Notes: generated from the letters alone by a model not told the origin. Positions 5,444-27,855 are shown, numbered from the stretch's first letter. The stretch is 32,608 nucleotides of DNA from a virus (IMGVR_UViG_2667527588_000004), one strand, 5' to 3'. Made by a program: numbers and translations.

Positions 5444-6006
5444 AACCTCAGTTGTTGTTTCAGTGCATACCCCAGCTGTTTCGGCATTTCCGCAGCAATA
5501 ATGCGGTCGCGGGCATCTTCAAATGCCTGTGTCAGCGGTCCGGACAGCGGGACTTTCACCACATCAATGGGGTAACGATTTTTGCCATCAATACGCCGCA
5601 TCACATGCCAGCGACCATTCGCCAGTTGCTGAATAAACGCATCCCGGAAAAGATATTTACCCACCTTCAGCACACTGCCACGGTACTGCAGTTTTCCACC
5701 ACGCCGGGCCAGTCTGACCCGGGCTGTCCCCAGCTTAATAGCGGGCAGATTGCCCCGGTTAACGCGGATCCTGGCCGTCATTTTTCCTGACGGACTGGCT
5801 TTAAACACCCGGACACGCTGACGTACCAGTTTCAGGGGGATCCCTTTCACCTGGTTATCTCCCGCAACGGTATTCCCGGCAACCTGCCGGGTGGCGACCG
5901 AGACCGCTTTCTGTGCCACACGGTTTATCGCCCATGCGCTGGCCTGTGGCACCATACGGGTATCAAGGCTGTTCAGATTACGGATGGCATTCTCAAGCCC
6001 CTTCAT
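5428..6006 (-). CDS. Z: Tail completion protein Z
   Basis: 192 aa, same length as lambda gpZ; starts MKGLENAIRNLNSL and contains GRWHVM.R..GK.RYPIDVVK, matching gpZ as recalled. Confidence 0.85.
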   Translation of the reverse strand: MKGLENAIRNLNSLDTRMVPQASAWAINRVAQKAVSVATRQVAGNTVAGDNQVKGIPLKLVRQRVRVFKASPSGKMTARIRVNRGNLPAIKLGTARVRLARRGGKLQYRGSVLKVGKYLFRDAFIQQLANGRWHVMRRIDGKNRYPIDVVKVPLSGPLTQAFEDARDRIIAAEMPKQLGYALKQQLRLWLTR

Positions 6007-8667: not shown

Positions 8668-10176
8668 TTATTCTTCGGACTGGTCGTCGGTGTGCTGCGG
8701 CTCCTGTCGTTTCGTTGCGGCACTGCTGCCTCCTTTATCACTGGCCGGATCGGTATCAAATACCAGATCCAGCTTGCGGTTTTCATCAATTTCGGCCTTG
8801 CGCCGACGTTTGACATCATCCGGATTACGACCACCAGCACGTACCCAGTCTGATTCTGTCGCCGCTCCACCACGAATCTGGATTTTCCAGGCCTCAGCCT
8901 CCTTAACAGGGTCAATCCACGGCATCACCGGTCCGGAATACACCGCGGTATACAGTGAAGAAAGGTCAAGATCGCGGGGTAGCCTGATAACACCGGATGC
9001 CACAGCCTGTTTCAGCCAGGCACGATACATCGGACGGGTGACGGCACCAATAAACCAGTCCTGCAGGATCAGGTAGCCATCAGTGGATTCAACCAGCTCC
9101 TGACGCTGGGCGCTGTAAGTGCCGTTATAGTTGCGCGCTGTACTGGAAAAACTCAGACGACTGCCCGCCGCCACGGCACGCAACTGACCATTACGAAAAG
9201 TTTCAAGGTTAGGATTTGGGCGATCCGACTTCACCATTCCGATTTCTTCGCCGGGTTTCAGATCATCGTAAATAATGCCTGGCTGAATGGTAAGCTCGCG
9301 TTCCTTATCCTTGCTGCCATTACCATCCGCTTCATAGCTCTGCCCGTCGCCTTTCCGGATGTACATCCCCAGAGCAGCGGCGATCCTTGCTGCAGTCAGC
9401 TCAGAATCTTCATACTCTTTCAGGGCACTGAGGCGGATCAGCACACCGGACAATAAAGACGTCCCGCGCATCTGGTGCAGACGGCGAACAAATTTAAGAT
9501 GCAGCATTCGCTCTGCATCCACTTCTTTGGTTTCCATCTGCCGTCCGGATACGGGACGGCTTTTATACACCAGATATTTTTCGGGACGCCCCCAGTCATC
9601 AACAAACACGCCCTGATTCAGCCTGTTGCTCTCATCACTGGTCATGGGAATAAAGTCCGGCTCGAGCGCCTCCAGCCAGAAATGAACACCGGCAGAAGGC
9701 GTCAGGCTGTTTATGCGCCCGGAAACCATCTGGGCAAACACCTCACCATCGCGCAGCCAGGTACGAAGCATCAGACGTTCCAGCATCGGACGGGTAAACT
9801 GCCCGGTGACTTCCGGGCTGACAGACCATTCACTCCATCGGGTGCGAATCTCCGCAGCCAGGTCACGGGCAATGGCCCCATTGCGTAATACCGGATGTGG
9901 CTCGACAATAATCCCGTTTTTCCCCACCACCCGTTCTTCCAGCTTGTCAAATACACCAATAACCAGATCGTGGTTGTTATCAAGGTAACGGGCCTGCTCA
10001 CGTAACGACACGGCCCCGTACTGGCTTAACTGGTCGGCAGTTCGGTTCTCCCGTCGGGCTTTGTGTGTCCGCGTCGTTTTTACGGCCTCATAAGCCTGGA
10101 TCACCGCACGGGAATGCAGCCTTGCCGCTTTCCATCCTGGTGAAAAAACGCCAATCACATCATCAAGAATTGCCAT
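8668..10176 (-). CDS. Portal protein
   Basis: ~500 aa ORF between gpW and the capsid gene with acidic C-terminal tail; start chosen at ATG 10176 (MAILDDVIGVF), overlapping the W stop as TGATG. Confidence 0.8.
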   Translation of the reverse strand: MAILDDVIGVFSPGWKAARLHSRAVIQAYEAVKTTRTHKARRENRTADQLSQYGAVSLREQARYLDNNHDLVIGVFDKLEERVVGKNGIIVEPHPVLRNGAIARDLAAEIRTRWSEWSVSPEVTGQFTRPMLERLMLRTWLRDGEVFAQMVSGRINSLTPSAGVHFWLEALEPDFIPMTSDESNRLNQGVFVDDWGRPEKYLVYKSRPVSGRQMETKEVDAERMLHLKFVRRLHQMRGTSLLSGVLIRLSALKEYEDSELTAARIAAALGMYIRKGDGQSYEADGNGSKDKERELTIQPGIIYDDLKPGEEIGMVKSDRPNPNLETFRNGQLRAVAAGSRLSFSSTARNYNGTYSAQRQELVESTDGYLILQDWFIGAVTRPMYRAWLKQAVASGVIRLPRDLDLSSLYTAVYSGPVMPWIDPVKEAEAWKIQIRGGAATESDWVRAGGRNPDDVKRRRKAEIDENRKLDLVFDTDPASDKGGSSAATKRQEPQHTDDQSEE

Positions 10177-16453: not shown

Positions 16454-16528
<75 letters not shown>

Positions 16529-16531
16529 ATA

Positions 16532-16607
<76 letters not shown>

Positions 16608-16609
16608 AC

Positions 16610-16686
16610 TGGACCGCCACCGGGGACTCGAACCTCGCACACTCAACTTAAAGGGTTGACGCTCTTTCCTGATGAACTGGTGACGG
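16610..16686 (-). tRNA. Atypical tRNA-like gene, anticodon loop CCTTTAA (UUU, Lys-like); possibly a pseudo-tRNA
   Basis: 77-nt sequence with acceptor stem CCGTCAC/GTGGCGG (one G-U), perfect anticodon stem TCAAC/GTTGA, T-loop TTCGAGT, 3' CCA; has C at position 33 and an A-C mismatch in the T-stem. Confidence 0.45.
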
Positions 16687-16687
16687 T

Positions 16688-16763
16688 TGGTGGCCCTTGC
16701 TGGATTTGACCCAGCGACCTGTCGATTATGAGTCGCTCGCTCTCACCACTGAGCTAAAGGGCC
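16688..16763 (-). tRNA. tRNA, anticodon CAU (tRNA-Ile2 lysidine type or Met; ileZ-like)
   Basis: 76-nt sequence GGCCCTTTAGCTCAGTGGTGAGAGC...CTCATAA...GCTGGGTCAAATCCAGCAAGGGCCACCA; resembles ileX/ileZ-type tRNAs as recalled; anticodon stem and T-loop are imperfect. Confidence 0.65.
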
Positions 16764-19975: not shown

Positions 19976-20131
19976 TTACTCCTCAGGTTCGTAAGCTGTG
20001 AAGACAGCGACCTCCGTCTGGCCGGTTCGGATTCGTACCTCGCAGAGGTCTTTCCTCGTTACCAGTGCCGTCACTATGACGGTTAAACAGATGACGATCA
20101 GGGCGATTAACATCGCCTTTTGCTGCTTCAT
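19976..20131 (-). CDS. hok: Hok/Gef family type I toxin (HokD/RelF-like)
   Basis: 51 aa MKQQKAMLIALIVICLTVIVTALVTRKDLCEVRIRTGQTEVAVFTAYEPEE; TM helix plus conserved RK.LCE..IR....EVA.F.AYE core; an in-frame upstream ATG at 20188 gives a 70 aa mok-like frame. Confidence 0.9.
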   Translation of the reverse strand: MKQQKAMLIALIVICLTVIVTALVTRKDLCEVRIRTGQTEVAVFTAYEPEE

Positions 20132-20342
20132 AGCCTGCTTCTCCTTGCCTTTCGGCACGTAAGAGGCTAACCTACATGTGTCTAGCATGAAATTGGCCTC
20201 AGATTAATGTTAAGCGTCTTGCAGGACGCGTAATGTTAACTGGGGCTTTTCTCTATCTGCCGTTGGTGTTCATGCCCGAGGCAGATAGCCTCAAGCACCC
20301 GCAGCCATTCTACTTAACTACCGTTACCTCGCCAATGTGAAA

Positions 20343-20432: not shown

Positions 20433-20674
20433 CACAACCTCCTGTATTGGACGTACACCGGTCCTGATGAATATGAGGCTGTCTCGTCAGTGATTCAATA
20501 CAACTATTGGGTATAGTTTCTCTGATTTTTTCTGTGGAAATGGGGCTCAACCACTAGTCATTTAATACGCAAAGTCCGATACAAGCTAACCTTCTAGTCC
20601 GCTTTGAGCGAAGAGCGGACATTGCTAACAGCATCCTGTGTGAATCATTACGATCAAATCGATGACTAGATAAG

Positions 20675-20711
20675 TACAAACCGGAAAAGGGGCCTACTGA
20701 CGAAGTAGGCC
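20675..20711 (-). terminator. Terminator-like hairpin after the three-gene operon
   Basis: Minus-strand hairpin GGCCTAC-TTCGTCA-GTAGGCC followed by CCTTTTCCGGTTTG, 18 nt after the gene C stop. Confidence 0.45.
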
Positions 20712-20728
20712 TGAGTTCCTTATATATT

Positions 20729-21385
20729 TCACAAAATTCTGAGAGTTTCTAAGATGGATAAAAGTGTTGGAAGCTGACTCTCTCTCACACGGAATCTACC
20801 CGTCCTAGATAATTCCGTTTCAATTCCGTTAACGAAGAAATGTACGGAATCAAAAACGGCCGAACTATTCATGTATTTATTCTGATAAATTTCTTGGAGA
20901 TTCTTTGAGCTTACTATTTTTGTCTTTGCTAAAGTAAAAGGATCAACAGAGATATTAGATAGAGACATGGATTTTATCTTGATGTCAAAGCCCTCAGAAA
21001 GACCATTTACAATTTTTCTCAGATCAAATTCTACTGGTCTCAAGCCACTATCTTCACCAAATAGTTTTTGCACCATAGTATAAGGCACTTTCATACTTAA
21101 TGGAGGATTAGTGGCATATAGTATGATTTTTTTCCCTTGTCTGACGCCAAAGTCCACATTTAAGTAAGTTGCTATTTCAACCTCTGAACGCTCGCCATTA
21201 GCATATTCTAAGCTTTGCTTGCTAATGCTTCTCATGGTAAATCTTAGTTTAAGCACTTCAGAGTTATTAATGATTTGAAAACCATATCCTTTATCTTCAT
21301 CATAGAGGTTGTCATTTACTTTATGTAATAACTCACTTTTAGTTATATCCTTTTCTGCTTTATAAATTTTTACCTTTATCATCAT
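20729..21385 (-). CDS. Hypothetical protein C of the AT-rich three-gene operon (218 aa), unknown function
   Basis: ATGATG start at 21385 overlaps the gene B stop as ATGA; AGGAGG 4 nt upstream; AT-rich codon usage unlike the flanking phage genes; no motif recognised. Confidence 0.8.
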   Translation of the reverse strand: MMIKVKIYKAEKDITKSELLHKVNDNLYDEDKGYGFQIINNSEVLKLRFTMRSISKQSLEYANGERSEVEIATYLNVDFGVRQGKKIILYATNPPLSMKVPYTMVQKLFGEDSGLRPVEFDLRKIVNGLSEGFDIKIKSMSLSNISVDPFTLAKTKIVSSKNLQEIYQNKYMNSSAVFDSVHFFVNGIETELSRTGRFRVRESQLPTLLSILETLRIL

Positions 21386-22629
21386 CCAGCCTCCTGATTC
21401 AAAGTCTCGCAAGACATAGCTTTCGTTACTGGGTATCGCTTGGTATGCTCTTCGATAATAAAGTCATTAATCAAAAATATTTTATCTTCTAATTGTTTCA
21501 TGACTTGATCAAAGTCTGCGTCACTGAGTTTTTCTCTCTCTGCGGATGCAGAGTTGCTTTCTTTGTATAACGCTCTGAATTTTATATTTTTCCCAAGATA
21601 TTTATCATCGAAACTAAGTTCAAAAGTTATAGTATGATTCTTAACTACTGAGGAAAATGACTTCCATCGAATTAAGCTTCGATAAAACCCATCACTGCAC
21701 AGTTCCTTAATTTGAGGTGCGTTCACTAATGATAGGCCATCATACGCGGCATTGTTAATGTTAAAAGTTAGGTTTTCATCATCGTCAGATGCCATTTCCT
21801 GATTATTAATGTCATCATCATTTTCGTTATCTGTAGAAGGTGAAATCTTGTTTAATAACTCTTGTGTTTCTTCATTATTATTTCCTTCGAGATTATCTCC
21901 ATTAATATCCAGAGATGTTTTTATTCTGCTTACTCTAACCTTTTCAAGACCAGCATATTCGAGTCCTGTTTTTTTATAATTTCCATCAAAATCATAAAGA
22001 TGAACAGCAAAAATATTCCTAAGATCTGTATCGACGATACTTGATAAATCTATTTCGTTGACAACTATGTTGTTACAAACTGTTGATGAATATGTATCAA
22101 TTATTTGCTTGAGAATTTCTGAAATGCGTGGCGTATAGTTATATCTTACTGAAACATATCCTTTTTTTACTATAAAAACTATACTCCCACTGTACAATTT
22201 TTTCTGCTGAAACTTACCCCTTCTAAAATCAAACTCAGTATAATCAATAGATATATGATAGGTTTGCAAGCCTGAGTAATGATCAATTTTCTCATGCCCT
22301 AGCAACTTGGGTCTATTTTCTTTCACTTTGTTTACAACGTCATAGAGTTTCTCTATATCAAATTCTTCATATATACGTTTTACTGAGAAGACGTCTTGGC
22401 TGGGTTTGGTTGCCAGTTTATCTTGTACTTCTCTGATGTGATTATATGAAAATGGCAGGTCTGATAATTTTTCTATCAATACCTCTTTTGATAAGTTAGA
22501 TGGGAAAATTATCCCTCTATTGAAGGCGATTTTCCTTAATGTAACATCTGTGATTTTTGCACTGTTAGAGTGGAGGGCGGTATAAATGTCACTTTCGTTT
22601 GAAAACAACGTAGCTTGATATTTATTCAT
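21382..22629 (-). CDS. Hypothetical protein B of the AT-rich three-gene operon (415 aa), unknown function
   Basis: ATG at 22629 with AAGGAG spanning the gene A stop; contains an Asn/Asp/Glu-rich low-complexity linker (NNNEETQELL...DNENDDDINNQEMASDDDEN); no Walker A or other motif recognised. Confidence 0.8.
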   Translation of the reverse strand: MNKYQATLFSNESDIYTALHSNSAKITDVTLRKIAFNRGIIFPSNLSKEVLIEKLSDLPFSYNHIREVQDKLATKPSQDVFSVKRIYEEFDIEKLYDVVNKVKENRPKLLGHEKIDHYSGLQTYHISIDYTEFDFRRGKFQQKKLYSGSIVFIVKKGYVSVRYNYTPRISEILKQIIDTYSSTVCNNIVVNEIDLSSIVDTDLRNIFAVHLYDFDGNYKKTGLEYAGLEKVRVSRIKTSLDINGDNLEGNNNEETQELLNKISPSTDNENDDDINNQEMASDDDENLTFNINNAAYDGLSLVNAPQIKELCSDGFYRSLIRWKSFSSVVKNHTITFELSFDDKYLGKNIKFRALYKESNSASAEREKLSDADFDQVMKQLEDKIFLINDFIIEEHTKRYPVTKAMSCETLNQEAG

Positions 22630-22639
22630 GTCATACTCC

Positions 22640-23731
22640 TTATGAAAAGTGACATTTTCTATTCACCTGCTTGCTGGCAACCTGGTACTCAAATATAGAT
22701 AGCTTTTGATTAACAAAAGGAATGGATACTATTTTTTCCTTTAACGTTTCTATATGAGATTGAGTGAAAGAATATATTCCTATGTAATCATTAATGGCGG
22801 ATTGCAAATGAATGCTTGAGTGTGATGAGAACGGAGTTATAACAAATATTTTGTCAAATTGATTGAGTAATTGATAGTTAAATATATACTCTAAAAGAAA
22901 TATAAAGTGGTTACTGGAATCAACCTCTTCCTTCCAGAATATATTCAATATTTTATTTCTTATTCTATCGCCACCATCATTTCTAATATATTCGTGTTCA
23001 TATGAGTAAAAAATCATCCCAGATGTTATCATTTCAATTGTGGCTGGAAGAATTTTCCCTTTCGTTGCTATTTTATTATGTTTGTCAGGGTAAAAATATG
23101 TACAGTTCTCTATCTCAGGAATTTTTTGCCATAACATATTTGTTTCTTGTGTTACTTTGTCAGTAATTCCTCTTCTAGTCTCGATGTGTTCTGTAACATC
23201 TAGTAAAAATCTGATCATAGTTGGGTCAAAAACGGCAATCACAGAGTTCTCTGGAAAATCATAACTTGCTGTGGCTGCTCCATTTAATTTCTCAATTAAA
23301 TCAGAGTCATATTTATTGTCATGATTATATATAAAAAGTAGGCCGTTAACTTGATATTTCTCATTTGTGCTGTCAACAAATAGACGCCGCCACTCAGGAC
23401 TTCTTGGCGCGCAAGCTACCTGTTGTGATAAACTTCGTACAGTGTTCAATATTGATTTTGTACCGTCAAGCGTGCTGGCACAATAAGATTTTAAATCTGT
23501 TTGTATATACTGAGTTATATCTGAATAAGGATCTTTATATTTGAAGACTACATCCGTAGGATGAGTTTTTTTTGGGTTTTCAGATAAAAGTTGTTTAGCG
23601 TTTAGATGAGATCTCAAACAACAGTCCCAACTTATATCCGTTGTATTTTGGGTTTTCCAGCCTAACTCATCAAAAATTCTACTGGAAATGATACCTGCAA
23701 TCTCATCAATATTCTTAGTTTCGCCGCCCAC
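22640..23731 (-). CDS. Hypothetical protein A of the AT-rich three-gene operon (363 aa), unknown function
   Basis: GTG start at 23731 with GGAGG 4 nt upstream; first gene of a translationally coupled A-B-C operon; no recognisable catalytic motif. Confidence 0.8.
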   Translation of the reverse strand: MGGETKNIDEIAGIISSRIFDELGWKTQNTTDISWDCCLRSHLNAKQLLSENPKKTHPTDVVFKYKDPYSDITQYIQTDLKSYCASTLDGTKSILNTVRSLSQQVACAPRSPEWRRLFVDSTNEKYQVNGLLFIYNHDNKYDSDLIEKLNGAATASYDFPENSVIAVFDPTMIRFLLDVTEHIETRRGITDKVTQETNMLWQKIPEIENCTYFYPDKHNKIATKGKILPATIEMITSGMIFYSYEHEYIRNDGGDRIRNKILNIFWKEEVDSSNHFIFLLEYIFNYQLLNQFDKIFVITPFSSHSSIHLQSAINDYIGIYSFTQSHIETLKEKIVSIPFVNQKLSIFEYQVASKQVNRKCHFS

Positions 23732-24050
23732 ACTTCCTCCATAGTTCGTTGTTTTATCTAGTGAAGATCTGATTCATGGTTTTCCAAGCCCATGCGCAAA
23801 ACAATTAATCAAGTAAGAATAATCTTAATCAATTTAATCTTTTTTATTTGAATCATCAAGAGCCCCATTACTGATAGGCATCAGTTGGTGGTATCTCTGC
23901 TCAAGCTTCAGTAAAATCTGGTTTGCTACTTCCGCTCCTGGCACAAAGCGGACAACCACGCCAGATCTACCCTGTGCCATGAAAAATGAGAATGTCAATT
24001 CACTCCTGAACTAATGCTTTTTAATCTAGTAACGTCTAAAATACCTAACA

Positions 24051-24452
24051 TTATCCCTGATAAAATGCCAGTATGCGCTGCATAACTTCACTCATCCGGC
24101 ACTCGCGACAGATTATGTTTAGGCGACTGTCGTAGCGACGTATTTCTCCATCAGGTAACGACCAGATAAGGTCCGGATCAACCACAGCTGTTTTCTTCAC
24201 CTTTGCCCTCGATAGTTTTTTGCGGGCGTTTTGCCAGTCCTTACGCGCCTGTTCAGACGGGAATAACCCGTAGCCGGAGTTGTATACATCGCCACTGGCT
24301 ACCAGCTCTCTGGCAAGAACGCTCATCAGATATCTAGTCGCACCTGTTTTAGCTTCCAGTTGCCGTAACGTCTCACGACCGCTCTGGCGCACGAGTTCCA
24401 CCACCTGCCCTTTAATTTTTTCCCGCTCTTCTTGTGTAAAAACTTTTGCCAC
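24051..24452 (-). CDS. Hypothetical phage protein
   Basis: 133 aa ORF downstream of the replication gene with typical phage-like GC content; basic; function unknown. Confidence 0.5.
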   Translation of the reverse strand: MAKVFTQEEREKIKGQVVELVRQSGRETLRQLEAKTGATRYLMSVLARELVASGDVYNSGYGLFPSEQARKDWQNARKKLSRAKVKKTAVVDPDLIWSLPDGEIRRYDSRLNIICRECRMSEVMQRILAFYQG

Positions 24453-27801: not shown

Positions 27802-27855
27802 TTTCTGGTGACGTTTGGCGGTATCAGTTTTACTCCGTGACTGCTCTGCCGCCGT
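27802..27855 (+). ncRNA. dicF: DicF small regulatory RNA
   Basis: TTTCTGGTGACGTTTGGCGGTATCAGTTTTACTCCGTGACTGCTCUGCCGCC followed by TTTTT matches the ~53-nt DicF RNA as I recall it; lies just upstream of dicB as in Qin. Confidence 0.75.

What the first reader, a model, noticed from the sequence alone, without database searches (positions are those of the whole stretch)
20675..24050. AT-rich, translationally coupled three-gene operon of unknown function inserted between the replication module and the hok/Nin region
Three minus-strand ORFs (A 363 aa, B 415 aa, C 218 aa) form a tight operon: GGAGG before a GTG start for A, AAGGAG across the A stop for B, and an ATGA stop-start overlap with AGGAGG for C. 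A hairpin terminator follows C and ~320 bp of AT-rich non-coding DNA precedes A. By eye the block is far lower in G+C than the ~50% flanking phage genes and uses AT-rich codons (many Asn/Lys/Ile/Tyr), implying recent acquisition from a low-GC donor. It sits where Qin-type prophages carry variable cargo (relBE, flxA and similar). I recognise no Walker A, nuclease or other motif, so the proteins match no family I can name. A strongly expressed, foreign, multi-gene cassette in a prophage moron position is the classic signature of an anti-phage defense or superinfection-exclusion system, so this is the top candidate for an undescribed system.
Basis: partly seen in the sequence, partly recalled or inferred. 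Interest (0 to 1): 0.85.

Follow-up and report, generated by a model that had tools for sequence, protein, structure and literature searches.

The report
3HP anti-phage operon on mobile cassette
The three AT-rich genes are a divergent copy of the already described "3HP" anti-phage defence system (a DNA-cutting enzyme plus two ring-type DNA-binding proteins), carried on a small cassette whose conserved end sequences may help explain how defence genes move between viruses, plasmids and chromosomes.

Summary
In detail: three translationally coupled minus-strand genes (363, 415 and 218 aa) at 33.5% G+C sit in a roughly 50% G+C Qin-like prophage. It is not an undescribed system. All three proteins match, in order, Hp1/Hp2/Hp3 of 3HP (Rst_3HP), which Rousset et al. 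2022 showed protects E. coli against phage P1. Identity to the validated proteins is only 22-33%, so this is a divergent member. The trio is present in every evaluable locus among 84 from many phyla.

Side finding: the operon is a 3,357-bp unit with the same boundaries in a lambdoid prophage, a P2-like prophage and a plasmid. It ends in two recombinase-site-like palindromes, L and R. L/R pairs bracket at least nine other cargos, form arrays, and co-locate with a conserved 200-aa tyrosine recombinase. This may bear on how defence systems move between unrelated mobile elements, but the recombinase-site link is inferred only.

The parts
23921..23953 (.). R end of the mobile cassette: a 33-nt terminal inverted repeat arm. 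The core site is 23930-23953 (GTCCGCTTT-GTGCCA-GGAGCGGAA on the minus strand), i.e. 9-bp inverted arms around a 6-bp spacer (TGGCAC/GTGCCA).
   Evidence: the repeat finder I1. Pattern search gave 3 matches against 0.00 expected. The boundary is the same in the P2-like prophage and the plasmid.
23732..23920 (-). Cassette-borne upstream non-coding region, AT-rich near the gene (G+C 0.30 over 23732-23860). The operon's own promoter is presumed to lie here but was not identified.
   Evidence: This region travels with the genes into the P2-like prophage and the plasmid. No consensus sigma-70 site was found. It is not conserved in orthologous cassettes of other genera.
22640..23731 (-). hp1 (protein A, 363 aa): PD-(D/E)xK nuclease of the GAPS4a type, the predicted effector. 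Conserved E4, H57-P58-x-D60 and T78-D79-L80-K81. The fold of the C-terminal half (about residues 146-363) is unknown.
   Evidence: PADLOC Hp1 5e-41. 33% identity, E 9e-49, to validated Hp1. PF26115 on all 71 homologues. Motif conservation.
21382..22629 (-). hp2 (protein B, 415 aa): a basic N-terminal four-helix domain (12-72, faintly HeH/SAP-like), an RdgC-fold body, and a disordered acidic linker at 244-282 (pI 4.05 over 244-285).
20729..21385 (-). hp3 (protein C, 218 aa, pI 9.2): a compact RdgC/Iml3-fold protein with invariant basic motifs (A153-K-T-K156, R194-T-G-R-F-R199).
20691..20711 (-). Terminator-like hairpin (GGCCTACT-tcgtc-AGTAGGCC) followed by CCTTTT.
   Evidence: Sequence. DNA fold -8.0 kcal/mol, z = -3.7. 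Not flagged by the terminator scan because the T-run is short.
20597..20629 (.). L end of the mobile cassette: a 33-nt terminal inverted repeat arm. The core site is 20597-20620 (GTCCGCTTT-GAGCGA-AGAGCGGAC), followed by ATTGCTAAC.
   Evidence: the repeat finder I1 and D4. Pattern search. Hairpin -9.4 kcal/mol, z = -3.3. Same boundary in three backbones. Related L sites occur in 438 of 5,426 E. coli genomes.

Best explanation
The operon is a divergent member of the 3HP (Rst_3HP) anti-phage defence family, carried as cargo in a Qin-like lambdoid prophage.

Shown:
- Hp1, Hp2 and Hp3 are homologous one-for-one to the experimentally validated system.
- The three genes always occur together, in this order.
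- Hp1 has the conserved catalytic residues of a PD-(D/E)xK nuclease of the GAPS4a type.
- Hp2 and Hp3, unrelated in sequence, both model as the RdgC/Iml3-Chl4 fold. That fold forms DNA-encircling or DNA-cradling dimers.

Inferred mechanism:
- Hp2 and Hp3 form a heterodimeric RdgC-like ring or clamp that binds DNA through its basic surfaces.
- Hp1 docks on it, plausibly on the N-terminal helical domain of Hp2. This is how GAPS4a is predicted to dock on the GAPS4b ring.
- Hp1 is kept inactive until the ring engages a phage-specific DNA state, such as free double-strand ends, injected linear DNA or replication intermediates.
- Hp1 then degrades DNA, stopping the phage directly or by abortive infection.
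- The acidic disordered linker of Hp2 may act as an autoinhibitory DNA mimic in the DNA-binding groove.

The operon with its own upstream region and terminator is a 3,357-bp self-contained cassette (20597-23953), bounded by two recombinase-site-like palindromes.
For: Family membership:
- PADLOC Hp1/Hp2/Hp3 at 5e-41, 9.6e-11 and 3.8e-11.
- Hp1 33% identical to validated Hp1, E 9e-49.
- Hp2 and Hp3 profiles match validated Hp2 and Hp3 at hhalign 98.9% and 98.3%.
- The validated system protects against P1 (PMC9122126).
- A phage relative is annotated Rst_3HP Hp1-3.

Unit conservation:
- Hp2 is found in 82 of 84 loci and Hp3 in 81 of 84. Genes abut or overlap. The only misses are contig ends.
- Consecutive locus tags in Yersinia, Vibrio and Shewanella.

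Nuclease:
- Invariant or near-invariant E4, H57, P58, D60, D79, L80 and K81.
- PF26115 PDDEXK_GAPS4 at E <= 1e-5.
- GAPS4a uses HGxD...SxK with catalytic D59. It works with a ring-forming partner as a DNA-break-triggered DNase (10.1101/2025.09.07.674715).

RdgC fold:
- Foldseek agrees for C.
- RdgC rings bind DNA in a basic pore. Iml3-Chl4 are heterodimers on DNA. The phage exclusion protein RexA shares the fold (PMC11077077).

Charge: C has pI 9.2, the Hp2 N-terminal domain and core have pI 9.05 and 8.6, and the linker has pI 4.05.

Mobile cargo context.
Against: - No experiment exists on this variant. It is only 22-33% identical to the tested system, whose spectrum was narrow (P1 only, among eight phages).
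- Complex formation is not shown. No multimer model could be run.
- No Hp1-Hp2 or Hp2-Hp3 fusion appears among the 150 best Hp2 representatives.
- B and C show no sequence relationship to RdgC (hhalign 0.2% and 1.1%) or to each other (0.5%). The resemblance rests on AF2 models. B's model is only moderately confident (pLDDT 75.7).
- I could not compare GAPS4b with Hp2 or Hp3 because I had no GAPS4b sequence. PADLOC gave no hit other than Hp1-3 at E <= 1.
- The HeH/SAP-like signal is below threshold.
- The fold of the Hp1 C-terminal half is unknown.
- The trigger is entirely inferred.
Confidence: 0.6

Rival explanations
1. Toxin-antitoxin-like abortive module. Hp1 is a constitutively active toxic nuclease, held in check stoichiometrically by Hp2 and/or Hp3 acting as protein antitoxins or chaperones. 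Phage infection shuts off host synthesis or degrades the inhibitor, which frees Hp1. DNA sensing by the RdgC-like proteins is not required.
For: Tight translational coupling fixes the stoichiometry. The cassette sits next to hok/sok here and next to hok and relE on the plasmid. Many PD-(D/E)xK defence effectors act abortively, GAPS4 included.
Against: Two different RdgC-fold proteins with conserved basic motifs are more than simple neutralisation would need. All three genes are retained in every evaluable locus across phyla. Rousset et al. report no toxicity for 3HP in the text I read.
Confidence: 0.2
2. A recombination or replication accessory module for the prophage itself. A nuclease plus RdgC-like modulators of RecA or replication restart would be comparable to the Orf/Rap/NinH functions encoded in the same Nin-region neighbourhood. 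It would not be a defence system.
For: The operon lies between the replication genes and the Nin/RusA region. RdgC itself modulates RecA and replication restart (PMC11077077).
Against: A homologous trio gave phage defence when cloned alone (PMC9122126). The same cassette occurs in P2-like prophages, plasmids and non-phage chromosomal contexts in many phyla. It is present in only 11 of 5,426 E. coli genomes, whereas about 1,300 share the flanking phage DNA. There is no sequence homology to RdgC.
Confidence: 0.07
3. RexA-like exclusion or regulatory function. The RdgC-fold proteins act mainly as DNA-binding regulators or sensors that alter host or prophage physiology, as lambda RexA does, and the nuclease plays a secondary role.
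Against: There is no membrane partner equivalent to RexB. None of the three proteins has a transmembrane-like segment (maximum Kyte-Doolittle 19-residue mean 1.04). The catalytic residues of Hp1 are invariant or nearly so across the family, which argues that nuclease activity is central.
Confidence: 0.08

Closest known systems
3HP / Rst_3HP (Rousset et al. 2022, Cell Host Microbe; plasmid pFR109, E. coli E1114, P2 gpA-gpQ hotspot)
   Same: Three genes in the same order with abutting or overlapping reading frames. Each protein is homologous to its counterpart. Hp1 starts MGGET and carries HPxD...TDLKSY. The system is prophage-borne and AT-rich (the Klebsiella P2-like phage copy is 0.364 G+C against 0.54 in its flanks).
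   Different: Identity is only 33%, 22% and 23%. Hp1 is 363 aa against 333. Hp2 is 415 aa against 359, with a much longer acidic disordered linker. This subclade is small: only 12 of 421 Hp2 cluster representatives score E <= 1e-30, and it is confined to Enterobacterales and Vibrionaceae. It sits in a lambdoid prophage slot, the P2 tail-fibre/sheath junction or plasmids, not in the P2 gpA-gpQ hotspot. Its phage spectrum is untested.
GAPS4 (Mahata et al.; bioRxiv 10.1101/2023.03.28.534373 and 10.1101/2025.09.07.674715)
   Same: The nuclease belongs to the same Pfam family (PF26115, PDDEXK_GAPS4). It has an N-terminal H-[GP]-x-D ... x-K motif at nearly the same positions (D59 against D60). It is partnered with a non-enzymatic protein that is predicted to form a ring.
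   Different: GAPS4 has two genes (or one fused gene) and a homodimeric GAPS4b ring in a 2:2 complex. 3HP has two different ring-fold proteins. Homology of GAPS4b to Hp2 or Hp3 was not tested. Triggering by DNA breaks is shown for GAPS4 only.
RdgC, the yeast Iml3-Chl4 (human CENP-L/CENP-N) heterodimer, and lambda RexA
   Different: There is no detectable sequence homology and no Pfam RdgC hit. None of these proteins is coupled to a nuclease.
Shedu and Hachiman (PD-(D/E)xK defence nucleases that respond to DNA ends or aberrant DNA states)
   Same: The proposed logic is the same: a sensor of DNA state licenses a PD-(D/E)xK nuclease. The GAPS4 authors draw this parallel.
   Different: The sensor modules are unrelated (SduA N-terminal clamp, HamB helicase). 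No homology was tested or claimed here.
For the cassette ends only: integron gene cassettes (IntI/attC) and Acinetobacter pdif modules (XerC/D). This comparison is from my own knowledge.
   Same: Promoter-containing or promoterless gene modules are bounded by short recombinase-type sites, lack target-site duplications, occur in arrays, and turn up with the same boundaries in unrelated replicons.
   Different: Each unit here has two different sites (L and R) with a 9-6-9 layout that resembles neither attC nor dif. The associated recombinase is a 200-aa tyrosine recombinase, not IntI or XerC/D. Its activity on these sites is untested.

Membership tests
3HP (Rst_3HP) | Three co-directional, abutting genes in the order hp1-hp2-hp3 | tested here: met
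   The same order is found in every evaluable locus among 84.
3HP (Rst_3HP) | Hp1 homologous to the validated Hp1 | tested here: met
   PADLOC PDLC03004 at 5e-41. BLASTP 33% identity over 318 aa, E 9e-49.
3HP (Rst_3HP) | Hp2 homologous to the validated Hp2 | tested here: met
   PADLOC PDLC03005 at 9.6e-11, N-terminal 57% of the profile. hhalign 98.9%, 302 columns. PHROG 6531 full length at 4.6e-27.
3HP (Rst_3HP) | Hp3 homologous to the validated Hp3 | tested here: met
   PADLOC PDLC03006 at 3.8e-11. hhalign 98.3%, 201 columns.
3HP (Rst_3HP) | Confers phage resistance (P1 for the type system) | not testable with these tools
   Only the E1114 system has been tested (PMC9122126).
GAPS4 | PD-(D/E)xK nuclease of the PF26115 type with an N-terminal HxxD...xK active site | tested here: met
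   The precomputed PF26115 hit is unmarked, meaning E <= 1e-5. Conserved H57-P58-x-D60 and D79-x-K81. The local Pfam copy lacks this model.
GAPS4 | Two-component system, GAPS4a plus GAPS4b, in tandem or fused | tested here: not met
   There are always three genes. No fusions appear among the 150 best Hp2 representatives.
GAPS4 | Partner protein homologous to GAPS4b | not tested
PADLOC returned only Hp2 and Hp3 for B and C at E <= 1.
GAPS4 | DNase activity triggered by DNA breaks or linear DNA | not testable with these tools
   Shown for GAPS4 only.
RdgC family (Pfam RdgC) | RdgC fold | tested here: met
RdgC family (Pfam RdgC) | Sequence-level membership | tested here: not met
   No Pfam hit. 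hhalign against E. coli RdgC gives 1.1% for C and 0.2% for B.
RdgC family (Pfam RdgC) | Ring-shaped dimer that binds DNA in a basic pore | not testable with these tools
   No multimer prediction was available. The only support is indirect: basic pI and conserved basic motifs.
Integron gene cassette (considered for the cassette ends) | IntI-type integrase with attI, and one attC per cassette | tested here: not met
   The window encodes no such recombinase. Each unit has two different 24-nt sites, L and R, not one attC. The associated recombinase elsewhere is 200 aa.

The most novel reading that the evidence does not exclude
The 3HP operon here is one cassette of a previously undescribed site-specific cassette-exchange system in E. 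coli mobile elements.

The observations behind this reading:
- Cargo units of 1.2-3.4 kb, many of them defence or defence-like (3HP, PDC-S15/FRG, HEPN, WYL-regulated genes, DUF2971; a restriction endonuclease lies beside a lone L site), are each bounded by two heterospecific 9-6-9 core-type sites.
- The sites are L (GTCCGCTTT-GAGCGA-AGAGCGGAC) and R (GTCCGCTCC-TGGCAC-AAAGCGGAC).
- Units are joined in arrays by a conserved R-18 nt-L junction.
- They would be moved or swapped by a conserved 200-aa tyrosine recombinase that lies inside such arrays.

This would give a concrete mechanism for the unexplained transfer of near-identical defence systems between lambdoid phages, P2-like phages, plasmids and genomic islands.

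Alongside this, 3HP and GAPS4 would form one mechanistic class: an RdgC-like DNA ring coupled to a PDDEXK_GAPS4 nuclease.
Probability: 0.35. Interest if true: 0.8.

Novelty: new member of a known kind. Interest (0 to 1): 0.55.

Why it matters
Two things still matter.

First, no paper in the searchable library gives a mechanism for 3HP. The assignment of Hp1 to the GAPS4a nuclease family, and of both Hp2 and Hp3 to the RdgC/Iml3-Chl4 DNA-ring fold, yields a specific and testable model. It also links 3HP to GAPS4, which senses DNA breaks.

Second, the operon is a precisely bounded cassette found in three unrelated backbones. Its end sites also bracket many other cargos and co-locate with a small tyrosine recombinase. 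A September 2026 study (PMC13586616) states that the mechanism by which near-identical defence systems move between P2/P4 and other mobile elements is unknown. These sites offer a direct experimental handle on that question.

Tried and rejected
- Pfam, NCBIfam and PDB sequence or profile searches gave nothing for any of the three proteins. The local Pfam copy lacks PF26115.
- B and C are not detectable paralogues (hhalign 0.5%), and neither is a sequence homologue of E. coli RdgC.
- The HeH/SAP-like signal in the Hp2 N-terminus stays below threshold (6 of 63 members, best E 0.0035). I treat it as a hint only.
- The AFDB50 fold library was unavailable.
- A search for fusion proteins as evidence of a complex found none among the best 150 Hp2 representatives.
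- The cassette's upstream region shows no consensus promoter and is not conserved with orthologous cassettes in other genera. No regulatory element can be proposed.
- Rfam finds no RNA family inside the cassette.
- The window's protein accessions are not in the stored parts of the Rousset hotspot tables, which were truncated on storage.
- A plasmid tblastn search meant to find two-gene GAPS4-type relatives found only three-gene 3HP relatives.
- The 54-codon ORF at 23834-23998 spans the cassette/backbone junction, so I do not consider it a gene.
- I considered an IS200/IS605-type or MITE-type origin for the ends. No transposase, no target-site duplication and no conserved target sequence were seen. 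The 9-6-9 layout and the co-located recombinase fit site-specific recombination better, but this is unproven.
- The literature holds no match to the end sequences apart from one chance match in a fish genetics paper.
Full report
**1. The observation**

The window carries three minus-strand ORFs: A at 22640-23731 (363 aa, GTG start), B at 21382-22629 (415 aa) and C at 20729-21385 (218 aa). Reading the minus strand directly shows the following:
- GGAGG, 4 nt, then the GTG of A.
- The TAA stop of A embedded in TAAGGAG, 7 nt before the ATG of B.
- AGGAGG followed by an ATGA stop/start overlap for C.

After C comes a hairpin, GGCCTACT-tcgtc-AGTAGGCC (20691-20711), then CCTTTT. It folds at -8.0 kcal/mol with z = -3.7. 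The T-run was too short for the terminator scan to flag it.

G+C is 0.335 over the coding block, against 0.52 to the left and 0.46 to the right. The upstream non-coding stretch is 319 bp, with no consensus promoter on the operon strand. The claim of strong expression is not supported by anything beyond good ribosome-binding sites.

**2. Context**

The window is 99.2% identical to a prophage of E. coli strain 200177, integrated next to rspB/ynfA. The prophage has a Qin-like early region: DicA/DicC-type repressors, DicF RNA at 27803-27854, DicB, YdfD, a YdaT-family gene and a DUF977 gene at 24051-24452. Downstream of the operon lie sok (20126-20300) and hokD, then rem, DUF968, RusA, Q, three tRNAs and the lysis genes.

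The operon is rare. It is complete in 11 of 5,426 complete E. coli genomes, whereas about 1,300 genomes share the adjacent DUF977 sequence.

**3. Identity**

PADLOC matches A, B and C to Hp1 (5e-41), Hp2 (9.6e-11) and Hp3 (3.8e-11), in that order. These are the components of 3HP (Rst_3HP). Rousset et al. [quoted passage not shown] Their Table S2A gives the tested proteins (pFR109, E. coli E1114).

Direct comparison with those proteins gives:
- A against Hp1: 33% identity over 318 residues, E = 9e-49. Both begin MGGET.
- The B-family profile against Hp2: hhalign probability 98.9% over 302 columns.
- The C-family profile against Hp3: 98.3% over 201 columns.

A Klebsiella P2-like phage carries the canonical cassette between its portal and gpA genes. 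A Vibrio phage relative is annotated Rst_3HP Hp1-3. PHROGs holds all three families as "unknown function". The operon is therefore a divergent member of a described and validated defence family, not an undescribed system.

**4. Conservation as a unit**

A scan of one genome per GTDB species found relatives of A in 237 species genomes. They span Pseudomonadota, Verrucomicrobiota, Acidobacteriota, Myxococcota, Desulfobacterota and others. I examined 84 loci, the 80 fetched in that scan plus four earlier ones. After profile iteration, a B homologue immediately follows A in 82 loci and a C homologue follows B in 81. The only misses are loci cut off by contig ends.

The Hp2 family has 421 clusters (at 50% identity) at E <= 1e-3. 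Only 12 reach E <= 1e-30, about seven of them in the window's long-Hp2 subclade, which is confined to Enterobacterales and Vibrionaceae.

The cassette has lower G+C than its flanks in 76 of 78 loci, by a median of 8.5 points. AT-richness is therefore a property of the family and not evidence for a recent low-GC donor.

**5. What the proteins are**

*Hp1.* In 67-69 aligned homologues, E4, H57, P58, D60, D79, L80 and K81 are invariant or nearly so. This is a PD-(D/E)xK active site. All 71 homologues carry a precomputed Pfam hit to PF26115 (PDDEXK_GAPS4) at E <= 1e-5. PGAP now names the protein a PD-(D/E)XK nuclease domain protein. The local Pfam copy lacks this model, which explains my empty scans.

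GAPS4a has the motif HGxD...SxK with catalytic D59. It forms a 2:2 complex with GAPS4b, whose dimer is predicted to be ring-like. [quoted passage not shown]

*Hp2 and Hp3.* Neither has a Pfam, NCBIfam or PDB sequence match. The AlphaFold2 models have pLDDT 75.7 for B, with a disordered linker at 244-282, and 92.5 for C.

What this fold does is documented in PMC11077077:
- RdgC forms ring-shaped dimers that bind DNA non-specifically in a basic pore.
- Iml3-Chl4 are RdgC-fold heterodimers on centromeric DNA.
- RexA is an RdgC-fold DNA-binding phage-exclusion protein.

The resemblance is at fold level only. hhalign against RdgC gives 1.1% for C and 0.2% for B, and B against C gives 0.5%.

C is basic (pI 9.2) with invariant AKTK and RTGRFR motifs. 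The N-terminal helical domain and the core of B are basic (pI 9.05 and 8.6), while its linker is strongly acidic (pI 4.05). A weak HeH/SAP-like signal in the N-terminus of B stays below threshold. None of the three proteins has a transmembrane-like segment.

**6. Proposed mechanism (inferred)**

Hp2 and Hp3 form a heterodimeric RdgC-like ring or clamp. Hp1 docks on it and is licensed to cut DNA when the ring engages phage DNA, most plausibly at free ends or on linear DNA, by analogy with GAPS4. The acidic linker may occupy the DNA groove until then.

What is shown: homology to a validated defence system, strict co-occurrence of the three genes, the nuclease active site, and the RdgC fold in the models. 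What is not shown: complex formation, DNA binding, the trigger and the target. No fusions that would support a complex were found.

The rivals are a toxin-antitoxin-like arrangement, a phage recombination accessory module, and a RexA-like regulatory role. I consider all three less likely, for the reasons given under rival explanations.

No paper in the searchable library links 3HP to RdgC or gives a mechanism.

**7. The cassette and its ends (outside the original finding)**

The same DNA, window 20596/7-23953/4, occurs in three other settings:
- At 99.76% identity in a P2-like prophage of strain MDK9L1, between the tail-fibre assembly and tail-sheath genes.
- At 96.8% identity in the leading region of a MOBP plasmid of Enterobacter hormaechei.
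- In a Rac-like prophage of strain ES5.

The boundaries agree to within one base in all of these. The unit ends in 33-nt imperfect inverted repeats at 20597-20629 and 23921-23953. The core pattern occurs only at these two places in the window, against 0.00 matches expected.

Each arm contains a palindrome with 9-bp inverted arms around a 6-bp spacer. L is GTCCGCTTT-GAGCGA-AGAGCGGAC and R is GTCCGCTCC-TGGCAC-AAAGCGGAC. That is the layout of tyrosine-recombinase core sites (my inference). No target-site duplication is seen.

L-like sites occur in 438 of 5,426 E. coli genomes, always in intergenic DNA. In the loci I inspected, L/R pairs bracket other cargos:
- Two unknown genes (ATCC 11775) and one unknown gene (CFSAN061769), both in the same hokD-DUF977 slot.
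- Two unknown genes, plus a WYL-HTH regulator with an SDR enzyme (2012EL-2448).
- One unknown gene beside a type I R-M/DarTG island (NCTC86).
- An FRG-domain protein that matches PADLOC candidate PDC-S15 at 1.7e-97 (ET82).
- A HEPN protein and an unknown gene in tandem at tRNA-Pro (CH468).
- A DUF2971 protein with an unknown gene (NDM_11.16372).

Tandem units are joined by a conserved R-18 nt-L junction.

A 200-aa tyrosine recombinase with an intact HxxR...H...Y signature is present at full length in 773 of 5,426 genomes. In all six loci sampled it lies among L/R sites, where shuffles give none. This includes the same prophage slot in E. coli 042 and in NWU_4. The window itself has no copy.

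The sample is small and was selected by motif or recombinase hits. Recombinase activity on these sites is untested.

The September 2026 NAR study of P2/P4 hotspots states that the mechanism by which near-identical defence systems are exchanged with other mobile elements is unknown (PMC13586616). These sites are a candidate answer.

**8. Verdict**

The finding is real and is very probably an anti-phage system, but it belongs to the known 3HP family. I classify it as a new member of a known kind.

Its value lies in two things. The first is a testable mechanistic model: a GAPS4a-type nuclease plus two RdgC-fold proteins. The second is the site-bounded cassette architecture noticed in passing, which deserves its own follow-up.

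Noticed in passing
window 20597-20629 and 23921-23953; also L086 5997-9353, L091 8779-12135, L085, L092-L098: The 3HP operon is a 3,357-bp unit with the same boundaries in a lambdoid prophage, a P2-like prophage and a plasmid. It ends in two palindromic 9-6-9 sites, L (spacer GAGCGA) and R (spacer TGGCAC). L/R pairs bracket at least nine other cargos in E. coli prophages and islands. There is no target-site duplication. L-like sites occur in 438 of 5,426 genomes.
   Followed up: partly
L085 3499-4101; L099/L102 7001-7603; L101 7001-7603; L103 7001-7573: A conserved 200-aa tyrosine recombinase (full length in 773 of 5,426 E. coli genomes) lies among L/R sites in all six sampled loci. In strains 042 and NWU_4 it occupies the same prophage slot as the window's cassette. 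The window has no copy. It is a candidate cognate recombinase for the cassettes.
   Followed up: partly
L099 4877-4942, L101 9584-9649, L094 8708-8773, L100 4020-4085: Tandem cassettes are joined by a conserved composite junction: an R site, 18 nt (GATATCACTGAGCTGAAG in CFT073 and 042), then an L site. This suggests integron-like arrays.
   Followed up: partly
L086 about 5988-5996 and 9354-9362; L093 right flank; L096 left flank: Outside the L and R sites, the P2-like, NCTC86 and NDM_11.16372 contexts share a further flank (AATCTGACA | ... | TGTCAGATT) that extends the inverted symmetry. The lambdoid and plasmid contexts lack it. Its meaning is unknown; it could be a docking site or a split hairpin.
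   Followed up: no
window 23834-23998 (minus strand): A 54-codon ORF (47 codons from its ATG) spans the junction between the phage backbone and the cassette R end. It is probably not a gene and is unannotated in RefSeq relatives.
   Followed up: partly
window 20126-20300 (-), 27803-27854 (+), and 16457-16763 (-): Rfam finds sok antisense RNA next to hokD, DicF sRNA in the immunity region, and three phage tRNA genes (Gly, Thr and Ile by RefSeq annotation) upstream of the lysis genes.
   Followed up: no
L091 7915-8432 (plasmid CP043768) compared with window 19976-20300: On the Enterobacter plasmid the cassette lies next to hok and relE in the leading region (psiB, ardA, parB). In the window it lies next to hokD/sok. 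From memory, this is the position that relBE occupies in K-12 Qin.
   Followed up: no
L031 8984-10076: In one Acinetobacter MAG, hp2 is split into two ORFs. This is a probable frameshift or pseudogene, and the only disrupted copy among the 84 loci.
   Followed up: no
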